Below are positions 62,597-63,862 of a DNA stretch of 64,000 bases, piece by piece. The stretch is from Eledone cirrhosa (lineage: Eukaryota): contig OZ024740.1 in the NCBI GenBank assembly GCA_964016885.1, positions 420,670,001-420,734,000 of the forward strand, read 5' to 3'. The position numbers were made by a program, and so were the translations under genes. How positions within the stretch are numbered: position 1 is the first letter of the stretch; each line of letters begins with the position of its first letter. Under the pieces are notes generated by a model. It saw only the letters and a list, made by a program, of their open reading frames with translations, had not been told where the DNA came from and made no database searches.

Positions 62597-63001
62597 ATAT
62601 ATATATATATAATACATATAATATATATATATATATATATAATACATATAATATATATATATATATATATATATATATATATATATATATTATATATATA
62701 TATATATTATATATATATATATATATTATATATATATATATATATATATATATATATATATATTTGGAAACACACAGATACATGCGGACACACACATATA
62801 TATATACATGAATGCATCCGCACCCAACTGTGAGTTAAGGGTGCCAACTTCACCGATGTTGCTCAATGAATGACTGGGACAGACCAATTCAATTTGAACC
62901 AGACTGAACCAGTATCAGAGTTAAAAATACATTATGAAGAGAGAAGAAACATTTAGATATAATTAGTAATAAAATGTATCATACCTAAACTGTTCCTAAA
63001 T

Positions 63002-63089
63002 TCCTCGACTACGTAGTTTCGTGGCATAAACAAAAACAATATATCAAAGATATAGAGTCCTTGCGAGGTCTGCCGACTTATCAAGAGGA
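63002..63089 (-). ncRNA. Inverted copy of the 63534-63621 hammerhead
   Basis: Reverse complement of 63534-63621. Confidence 0.78.
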
Positions 63090-63533
63090 TACCTCATGTA
63101 TTTTTAACTCTGATACTGGTTCAGTCTGGTTCAAACTGAATTGGTCTGTCCCAGTCATTCATTGAGCAACATCGGTGAAGTTGGCACCCTTCACTCACAG
63201 TTGGGTGCGGATGCATTCATGTATATATATATGTGTGTGTCCGCATGTATCTGTGTGTTTCCAAATATATTAATAACTCCCTCTGGTCGAGCAATCTTTG
63301 AAGTGTGGGGACAACTGGAAAGCTTCCATTACTCATACTTCTCGCCTTCTTCACTACCTCTTCTACGGCCTCGATATGAATACCCCCTCCGCCTCCGTGG
63401 TATTTTCTTCGTGGTTATAGGAGGCTTAGCTCTGTTTCTCGACCGTTATATCGCGTGACTATCTCCCCCTCCGCCTTTTGGGATTCTTTCTCACGTCGTG
63501 TAGACGCGTTCTTGAGACTAGTAAAATGAGGTA

Positions 63534-63621
63534 TCCTCTTGATAAGTCGGCAGACCTCGCAAGGACTCTATATCTTTGATATATTGTTTTTGTTTATGCC
63601 ACGAAACTACGTAGTCGAGGA
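63534..63621 (+). ncRNA. Type I hammerhead ribozyme with U3-A8 core and extended stem II
   Basis: tcctc-TTGATAA-gt(c)ggca...tgccac-GAAA-CTACGTAG-TC-gagga. G10.1-C11.1 is intact, stem III is palindromic (ACTACGTAGT), GUC cleavage triplet ends at 63616. Confidence 0.8.
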
Positions 63622-63862
63622 ATTTAGGAACAGTTTAGGTATGATACATTTTATTACTAACTATATCTAAATGTTTCTTCTCTCTTCATAATGTATATAT
63701 ATATATATATATATATATATATATATATATATATATATATATATATATTATATATATATATATATATATATATATATATATATATATATATATATATATA
63801 TATATATTATATATTATATATATATATATATATTATATATATATATATATATATATATATAT

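What the first reader, a model, noticed from the sequence alone, without database searches (positions are those of the whole stretch)
62760..63695. A-B-A'-C-B' structure reveals a circularly permuted ~595-nt ribozyme monomer
Seen: the forward unit A'-C-B' spans 63096-63690 (595 bp). The inverted segment 62760-63097 reads, on the minus strand, B' joined directly to A' (…ctcttcataATGTAtttttaactc…). The end of the unit is therefore contiguous with its own start in the template, although no tandem copy exists at this locus. Inference: the insertion was copied from a circular or tandem-multimeric RNA with a template switch, as expected for a retrozyme circRNA or a tandem Penelope pLTR. The two overlapping inverted-repeat pairs offer alternative ~170-bp dsRNA stems.
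Basis: partly seen in the sequence, partly recalled or inferred. Interest (0 to 1): 0.8.

Follow-up and report, generated by a model that had tools for sequence, protein, structure and literature searches.

The report
Hammerhead retrozyme copied from both ends
This is one of thousands of copies of a small non-coding jumping element with a hammerhead ribozyme motif, and its back-to-back layout shows two fixed ends that were likely each copied from the same, probably circular, RNA by a Penelope-type enzyme, which would explain how such elements insert.

Summary
The layout is real. The 595-nt unit is a non-coding repeat with a type I hammerhead motif (U3-A8 core, palindromic helix III). Its hammerhead 26-mer occurs 7,069 times in the genome, often in head-to-tail arrays inside (TA)n. 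It is a non-LTR retrozyme / non-autonomous Penelope-like element (PLE), and the inverted layout is the known PLE 'inverted copy plus tail'. Added here: outer ends fall at two fixed points, H (unit 595+5) and T (unit 175). In 23 of 24 resolved inverted insertions one arm ends at H and the other at T, and either arm can be the longer. The rule also holds in an older subfamily (15/15) and two autonomous Hydra-like PLE families (22/22, 8/9). The two arms share one haplotype (1.4% vs 30% discordance), read through the cleavage site, and rare variants are shared by all monomers or by one (74:1 partial). Best reading: both target strands prime reverse transcription at two sites on one, probably circular, RNA and the cDNAs join head-to-head. 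A single template switch fits less well. Circular RNA, cleavage and the partner enzyme are untested. New member of a known kind with a useful mechanistic handle.

The parts
62758..63097 (-). Inverted arm (T arm, 340 nt): unit 431-595 then unit 1-175; outer end at site T against (TA)n
   Evidence: (L001)
63096..63695 (+). Forward arm (H arm, 600 nt): unit 1-595 plus ATGTA; outer end at site H against (TA)n
   Evidence: H-end letters ATGTATA in 50 of 67 H ends
63096..63097 (.). Head-to-head junction of the two 5'-truncated arms, 2-nt overlap (AT)
   Evidence: overlap of 1-7 nt in 18 of 27 sampled junctions
63535..63620 (+). Type I hammerhead motif: helix I CCTC/GAGG, core TTGATAA (U3-A8 variant) 63539-63545, long helix II 63546-63602, GAAA 63603-63606, palindromic helix III CTACGTAG 63607-63614, predicted cleavage 63616/63617
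   Evidence: helix I plus core about 10-fold less variable than the unit over 64 monomers; alignment
63003..63088 (-). Second copy of the hammerhead motif, in the inverted arm
63691..63696 (+). Site H, first fixed end (inferred reverse-transcription start), 79 nt after the cleavage site; read through internally at 62928-62932 (-)
62758..62764 (-). Site T, second fixed end (inferred reverse-transcription start), 170 nt 3' of H in the RNA; read through internally at 63264-63270 (+)
63115..63155 (+). Predicted hairpin 1 in the tail; pair-preserving changes between subfamilies, one well-supported two-sided change
63193..63258 (+). Predicted hairpin 2, ending about 10 nt 5' of site T; one-sided pair-preserving changes only
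63277..63292 (+). CTC-(9 nt)-GAGC motif 7 nt 3' of site T; near-identical motif follows T in autonomous Hydra-like family F5. A CTC...GAGC with a longer insert follows H (63108-63167)
63383..63476 (+). Two copies of a 12-nt C-rich box (63383, 63465) upstream of the ribozyme; possible promoter element, untested
62600..62757 (.). (TA)n target, left flank
63696..63862 (.). (TA)n target, right flank

Best explanation
This is a copy of a non-coding 595-nt hammerhead-bearing repeat (non-LTR retrozyme type) whose two outward-facing arms end at two fixed points and were likely made by a Penelope-type enzyme priming reverse transcription from both strands of a cut (TA)n target on one, probably circular, RNA. 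SHOWN: high-copy family, tandem arrays, (TA)n targets, two fixed ends H and T 170 nt apart, one of each per inverted insertion, variable 5' break points, same haplotype in both arms, read-through of the cleavage site. INFERRED: tandem transcripts self-cleave (likely as dimeric hammerheads) and are ligated to a 595-nt circle. A PLE RT-endonuclease dimer, most likely of the Hydra clade with family F5 the best candidate, binds a CTC..GAG element just 3' of each start site and cuts both strands of (TA)n. One 3' end would prime at H and the other at T, each with about 6 nt of pairing to the AU-rich site. Both RTs would roll round the template, sometimes for several turns, stop at random, and the two cDNA ends would be joined by 0-7 nt microhomology. 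If one arm is lost, a plain 5'-truncated copy ending at H or T (12:11) results.
For: 7,069 exact hammerhead 26-mers, control 0. Position-ordered sample of 49 loci, 51 insertions: 27 inverted, of which 24 H+T (23 after removing the L088 duplicate), 1 H+H, 2 unresolved; p=1.5e-6 for 23/24 against 0.5. T arm longer in 11 of 24, so the rule is reciprocal. Direct copies: 12 H, 11 T, 1 other. Older subfamily (85% identical): 15 H+T, 0 T+T, 3 unresolved of 18 inverted, from a query that required a T arm. Autonomous F2: 22 of 23 pairs one-of-each, 1 unresolved. F3: 8 of 12 one-of-each, 1 H+H inside a larger inverted duplication, 3 unresolved. Arms of one insertion differ at 9 of 655 polymorphic site comparisons (1.4%) against 30% (minimum 20%) in 2,000 shuffles. 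Of 290 rare-variant sites covered by two or more monomers, 74 are in all monomers, 215 in one, 1 in some. Fold-back geometry impossible in 11 of 23. No pile-up of 5' breaks at the cleavage site (2 of 76, expected 3.2); 191 of 192 monomers read through 517-526 unchanged. Hammerhead helix I plus core variability 0.005 vs 0.052 for the unit. Circular fold z=-7.3 against 40 shuffles. In vitro precedent in another clade: PAc cuts and extends both strands, starts at two internal sites that bound the tail, needs RNA 3' of them, and is predicted to be a dimer (PMC11167929).
Against: No RNA evidence: circle, cleavage and expression are untested. In PAc, ribozyme cleavage was not needed for insertion in vitro and uncleaved RNA was the main substrate. 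Same haplotype in both arms could also come from two RNA molecules of one donor. In 9 of 27 junctions the two 5' breaks lie within 30 nt of each other (2.8 expected), which looks like fold-back in a share of events. The unit has no significant overall similarity to the hammerhead regions of F2-F7 (z<=1.9; best F5 alignment score 35 vs null mean 30, max 46), and all 30 inspected of 54 helix-III variant hits were this family itself, so the partner rests on one 17-nt motif. That motif was found post hoc in six sites; only the F5 T site was a forward test. F4 follows a two-end pattern without the full motif. PAc primes without homology to the target, unlike the pairing inferred here. The sample is conditioned on an exact hammerhead 26-mer, so very short T arms are missed.
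Confidence: 0.62

Rival explanations
1. Same element and same two primings, but the template is an uncleaved linear read-through transcript of a tandem donor array; no circle is involved.
For: Tandem donors of up to 5 monomers per arm exist. PAc uses uncleaved RNA in vitro. No RNA data show a circle.
Against: 5' truncation can only shorten arrays, yet all 7-8 covering monomers in L118 share five rare variants, and partial sharing is 1 of 75 shared variants. That needs repeated re-amplification from one monomer. The hammerhead core is conserved across subfamilies.
Confidence: 0.2
2. One priming only: the cDNA switches template or folds back, and the second fixed end is made by endonuclease cutting of a DNA intermediate, as Craig et al. 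suggested for the tail.
For: 9 of 27 junctions are near-perfect fold-backs. One-of-each ends and shared haplotypes are also predicted. Craig 2021 ascribes the tail to EN-mediated resolution.
Against: Neither arm contains the other in 11 of 23 sampled loci nor at this locus (T 340, H 600 nt), unless a longer extrachromosomal intermediate is trimmed. Either end type can sit on the longer arm (11 vs 13). In PAc both tail boundaries are RT start sites.
Confidence: 0.13
3. Local rearrangement in palindromic (TA)n, or an assembly chimera, made the inversion after an ordinary insertion.
For: The locus sits in long (TA)n with other palindromes nearby. One F3 pair is a large inverted duplication.
Against: The same junction is present in a duplicated segment. 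About half of all sampled insertions are inverted with the H/T rule. Flanks are not duplicated. The inverted arm holds a 595-to-1 junction that the forward arm lacks. Both ends abut TA in contigs of another run (X2 loose ends).
Confidence: 0.02

Closest known systems
Metazoan non-LTR retrozymes (Cervera and de la Pena 2020, PMC7229834; Li et al. bioRxiv 10.64898/2026.07.22.740005)
   Same: Non-coding tandem repeats with one type I hammerhead per unit, GC 42%, monomers to multimers, co-occurring with PLEs. 595 nt lies within the 51-972 bp range of the preprint.
   Different: Longer than the 170-400 nt circles shown by Northern; U3-A8 core with a 57-nt helix II. The passages read do not describe inverted arms with two fixed ends; 'inverted' has 0 hits in PMC7229834. 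Expression as a circle is not tested here.
Penelope-like element insertions: partial tandem, inverted 5'-truncated copy, one-sided tail (Craig et al. 2021, PMC8557442, Fig. 2); non-autonomous Chlamys/MRC1
   Same: Same layout, (TA)n targets, tail at one end only, head-to-tail non-autonomous arrays.
   Different: Tail is 170 nt here and about 87 nt in F2/F3, against 30-40 bp described. The rule is near-absolute and reciprocal in counts. No ORF.
Hydra-clade PLEs (Craig 2021, section 11)
   Same: Families F2, F3, F5 in this genome have DKT, an RW motif, CxCx5C linker, hammerheads and (TA)n targets, follow the two-end pattern, and share the CTC..GAG motif after the start sites.
   Different: The 595-nt unit is not detectably derived from their terminal repeats; clade assignment is by motifs, with no tree built.
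PAc (Poseidon of Anolis) two-site internal initiation (Frangieh 2024, PMC11167929) and L1 twin priming (recalled, no call)
   Same: Two internal RT start sites bound the tail; both strands cut and extended; head-to-head join with microhomology as in twin priming.
   Different: PAc sites are adjacent, showed no strand difference, and lack target homology. In L1 the second primer lands at variable sites. Here both sites are fixed, 170 nt apart, and used one per strand.

Membership tests
Non-LTR retrozyme | Type I hammerhead motif in each unit | tested here: met
   Helices and core read at 63535-63620; conserved in 28 aligned copies; U3-A8 is a described PLE variant (PMC4209133). No Rfam hit at gathering thresholds.
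Non-LTR retrozyme | Head-to-tail tandem arrays with two or more consecutive hammerheads | tested here: met
   Periods 591/595 at many loci; not at this locus itself.
Non-LTR retrozyme | Non-coding, GC below 45-50%, a few hundred nt, no LTR | tested here: met
   GC 42%; longest Met-started frame in a natural trimer is 75 aa.
Non-LTR retrozyme | Self-cleavage of the RNA | not testable with these tools
   Needs in vitro transcription of monomer and dimer.
Non-LTR retrozyme | Expressed as linear and circular monomer RNA | not testable with these tools
   No raw RNA reads were offered.
Penelope-like element, non-autonomous | 5' truncation, partial tandems, inverted 5'-truncated copy | tested here: met
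Penelope-like element, non-autonomous | Optional tail at one end only | tested here: met
   23 of 24 resolved inverted insertions; tail 170 nt rather than 30-40 bp.
Penelope-like element, non-autonomous | Sequence shared with the terminal repeat of an autonomous PLE | tested here: inconclusive
   No significant overall match to 8 regions of families F2-F7. A 17-nt motif gives 70 genome hits, control 0; of 30 inspected, 24 are F5, 1 an F5-like family, 5 this family.
Penelope-like element, autonomous | ORF with RT and GIY-YIG endonuclease | tested here: not met
   No ORF in the unit or adjoining it.
Penelope-like element, non-autonomous | Target-site duplication | tested here: inconclusive
   Both flanks are (TA)n, so no duplication can be measured.

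The most novel reading that the evidence does not exclude
PLE integration is an obligatory two-ended reaction: a dimeric enzyme primes both target strands at two fixed sites on one RNA, each marked by its own downstream CTC..GAG element, and on a retrozyme circle both RTs roll for several turns. The PLE tail, inverted copies and tandem retrozyme arrays would then all be products of one step, and this family would be direct genomic evidence that animal retrozyme circles are copied by Hydra-type PLE proteins.
Probability: 0.4. Interest if true: 0.72.

Novelty: new member of a known kind. Interest (0 to 1): 0.5.

Why it matters
How PLEs make their tandem/inverted insertions is named as an open problem by Craig et al. 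2021, and mobilisation of retrozyme circles by PLEs is so far argued from co-occurrence and sequence similarity. This family is young, short, haplotype-rich and present in thousands of copies, so each insertion records two start sites, two stop sites and the template haplotype. It gives a counted rule (one end of each type), a candidate cis motif and a candidate enzyme family, which together make a direct in vitro test possible. The element itself is an ordinary member of a known class.

Tried and rejected
Rfam scan of the window: no hit. DNA searches with the A and B parts returned only 7 and 8 matches because common words are skipped, so a pattern search was used. Expression: no RNA holder listed. 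Runs X1 and X6 (kind unknown) each hold one 621/620-nt contig equal to one unit plus 30 nt, starting at different points; tandem DNA gives the same closed loop, so this is not used as evidence. Partner search: family PF26215 not in the library; 45 GIY-YIG loci out of 150 scored (10,595 candidates) gave no match to the unit beyond microsatellite; an older-subfamily query and a helix-III variant pattern returned only this family. Pile-up of 5' breaks at the cleavage site, H or T: none, which rejects a cleaved linear monomer as template. Free (TA)n pairing as the sole guide to priming: rejected, since the longer TA run at unit 124-137 is an end in 1 of 90 insertions (L040). Script faults: one search used a wrong reference and crashed (redone); mis-called F2 T ends with a loose threshold (redone). 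Rows dropped before counts: HSPs under 22 nt, microsatellite-only HSPs, the second L088 copy. Earlier findings of the scan: nothing returned. Literature searches for the one-of-each rule or for this family found no paper stating it; older Penelope papers outside the library and all supplements were not seen and may describe it.

Full report
1. Observation. The two overlapping inverted repeats are present: 62753-62932 with 63096-63275, and 62922-63097 with 63526-63701, both 98%. With the forward unit 63096-63690 numbered 1-595, the minus strand from 63097 reads unit 431-595 directly into unit 1-175, with three substitutions against the forward copy. The arms overlap by AT at 63096-63097 and both outer ends run into (TA)n. 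The same insertion, with the same junction and flanks, lies about 406 kb away in reverse orientation and differs inside the element by three single-base insertions (L034). It is either a segmental duplicate or a second haplotype, and it argues against a single chimeric read.

2. The ribozyme motif. Rfam finds nothing at gathering thresholds, but 63535-63620 reads as a type I hammerhead: helix I CCTC/GAGG, core TTGATAA, a 57-nt helix II region, GAAA, palindromic helix III CTACGTAG, cleavage predicted at 63616/63617. Short helix I, long helix II, palindromic helix III acting as a dimer, and the U3-A8 core are described for PLE hammerheads (PMC4209133, part 1 of 4 read). Over 64 full monomers from 95 loci, helix I plus core varies 0.005 per column against 0.052 for the unit; this part was not in the search pattern. 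Activity is untested.

3. The family. The hammerhead 26-mer occurs 7,069 times in G000 (control 0). Copies form head-to-tail arrays of period 591/595. The unit is 42% GC and its longest Met-started frame is 75 aa. Subfamilies range from 82% to 99% identity to this copy. The host is probably an octopus; this rests on a recalled flanking repeat and the 3-Gb assembly, not on a call.

4. Two fixed ends. I fetched all 49 loci behind the first 100 listed pattern hits on contig C1 and mapped them. Of 51 insertions, 24 are direct and 27 inverted. Outer ends fall at H (unit 595 plus ATGTA) or T (unit 175-177). Direct copies end 12 at H, 11 at T, 1 elsewhere. Inverted copies always point outward: 24 have one H and one T end (23 without the L088 duplicate), 1 is H+H (an old palindrome with 57-nt arms, 82% identity), 2 are unresolved; p=1.5e-6 for 23/24. 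The T arm is longer in 11 of 24. Over all 90 mapped insertions, 42 of 49 inverted are H+T, 1 H+H, 6 unresolved. An older subfamily gives 15 H+T, 0 T+T, 3 unresolved of 18, from a query that required a T arm. Contigs of run X2 show TA loose ends at both sites. Junctions overlap by 1-7 nt in 18 of 27, are blunt in 3, overlap by more in 2 and carry extra bases in 4 (BLAST boundaries, approximate). 5' break points are spread round the unit with no excess at the cleavage site, H or T (2 of 76 each, 3.2 expected).

5. One template. At 31 polymorphic sites the two arms of an insertion differ in 9 of 655 comparisons, against 30% for shuffled pairs. Rare variants are in all covering monomers (74), in one (215) or in some (1); all 7-8 covering monomers of L118, on both arms, share five. 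Monomers read through the cleavage site unchanged in 191 of 192 cases (partly selected by the pattern). A cleaved linear monomer would limit arms to about 80 (H) and 250 (T) nt, so the template is uncleaved or ligated. Homogeneous arrays with lineage-specific variants need repeated re-amplification from one monomer, which a circle gives most simply (inference). Simple fold-back needs one arm to contain the other; this fails in 11 of 23 loci and here. Against a pure two-priming model, 9 of 27 junctions have both breaks within 30 nt (2.8 expected), which could be fold-back or both RTs reaching one RNA break.

6. Structure and motif. The unit folds as a circle at -172.7 kcal/mol (z=-7.3, 40 shuffles), with long hairpins just 5' of H and of T. 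Over 28 copies the two tail hairpins keep 98.4% of cells paired, mostly by one-sided changes; only 2 of 40 pairs change on both sides, and related sequences inflate such scores. A CTC-(loop)-GAG motif starts 4-8 nt 3' of the fixed ends in this family (H, T), F2 (H, T), F3 (H, T), F5 (H) and F6 (H); I noticed it post hoc, then found it as predicted after F5's T site. Background frequency is 2-6% per position. F4 has two ends but lacks the full motif.

7. The rule is general here. Two neighbours in this window are fragments of autonomous PLE families: F2 (62227-62598; 6,258 exact hits; about 3.8-kb unit) and F3 (2414-2855; 2,730 hits; about 3.7 kb). Their ORFs and that of F5 carry DKT, an RW motif and a CxCx5C linker, the marks of the Hydra clade (PMC8557442 section 11); Pfam gave no hit for the F2 and F3 ORFs and no tree was built. 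F2 gives 22 of 23 inverted pairs one-of-each (1 unresolved), F3 8 of 12 (1 H+H within a larger inverted duplication, 3 unresolved). Tails are about 87 nt. The 595-nt unit has no significant overall similarity to these terminal regions. A 17-nt pattern around the T motif, set to exclude most of this family, gives 70 hits; 24 of 30 inspected are F5. F5 copies are 90-98% identical and at least two have an open 844-codon frame. F5 is the best candidate partner, not a proven one.

8. Mechanism. Inferred: tandem transcripts self-cleave and are ligated to a circle; a PLE dimer cuts both strands of (TA)n, primes one at H and one at T, copies for variable lengths, and the cDNA ends are joined by microhomology. 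This locus records a 600-nt H arm and a 340-nt T arm. PAc in vitro cuts and extends both strands, starts at two internal sites that bound the tail, needs RNA 3' of them and is predicted to be a dimer, but does not need ribozyme cleavage and primes without target homology (PMC11167929, parts 1-2 of 4 read). Odds: identity about 0.93, two primings about 0.75, circle about 0.65, whole model 0.62.

9. What is known. Type I hammerhead tandem repeats expressed as circles, with PLEs as proposed partners: PMC7229834 (passages and Discussion). Retrozymes as non-autonomous PLE derivatives of 51-972 bp: bioRxiv 10.64898/2026.07.22.740005 (parts 1-3 of 5). Inverted 5'-truncated copy with a 30-40 bp tail often at one end only, mechanism open: PMC8557442 (passages). 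So class and layout are known. In the searches run (listings only for papers not named here) I found no statement of this family, of tails of 87-170 nt, of the counted reciprocal rule, of the haplotype test or of the motif. Older Penelope papers outside the library and all supplements were not seen. Verdict: new member of a known kind, interest 0.5.

Noticed in passing
window 62227-62598: Inverted fragment of autonomous Hydra-like PLE family F2 with its own hammerhead (about 62401-62470); left arm ends at H, right arm carries an 88-nt tail. A further F2 end lies near 2054.
   Followed up: yes
window 2414-2855: 338-nt near-perfect palindrome: fold-back fragment of Hydra-like PLE family F3 with hammerheads on both arms and an 87-nt tail on the right arm only.
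   Followed up: yes
window 61665-64000 and L034 (G000:C1 about 421.139 Mb): The window's end is duplicated about 406 kb away in reverse orientation; differences are mostly indels in homopolymers and (TA)n. Segmental duplication or uncollapsed haplotype.
   Followed up: partly
window 24622-27705 (-) and 54630-57682 (-): LINE ORF of 1,027 aa with AP endonuclease, RT and a PHD finger right after the RT; a second copy is broken into three frames.
   Followed up: no
window 61663-62009: Palindrome with short unique arms around (TA)n; origin not examined.
   Followed up: no
window about 36000-52000 and 14100-18200: Two long stretches that look like tandem satellites (flat 29% GC; about 47-nt period).
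   Followed up: no
L041:1636 and L043:1501: Two copies on different contigs are cut at unit 568 by the same foreign sequence, which recalls a Helitron-type end (recalled, untested).
   Followed up: no
L161, L162, L166, L170, L172: Autonomous PLE family F4 (938-aa ORF, RVT_1 and GIY-YIG hits) also has a U3-A8 hammerhead and two fixed ends, but lacks the full CTC..GAG motif.
   Followed up: partly
L118:5205-5265: Junction holds a tandem run of an 11-nt piece of the unit, suggesting repeated slippage during joining.
   Followed up: no
L092:3820: An F4 end abuts the 5' break of a copy with no TA between them; nested insertion or co-insertion.
   Followed up: no
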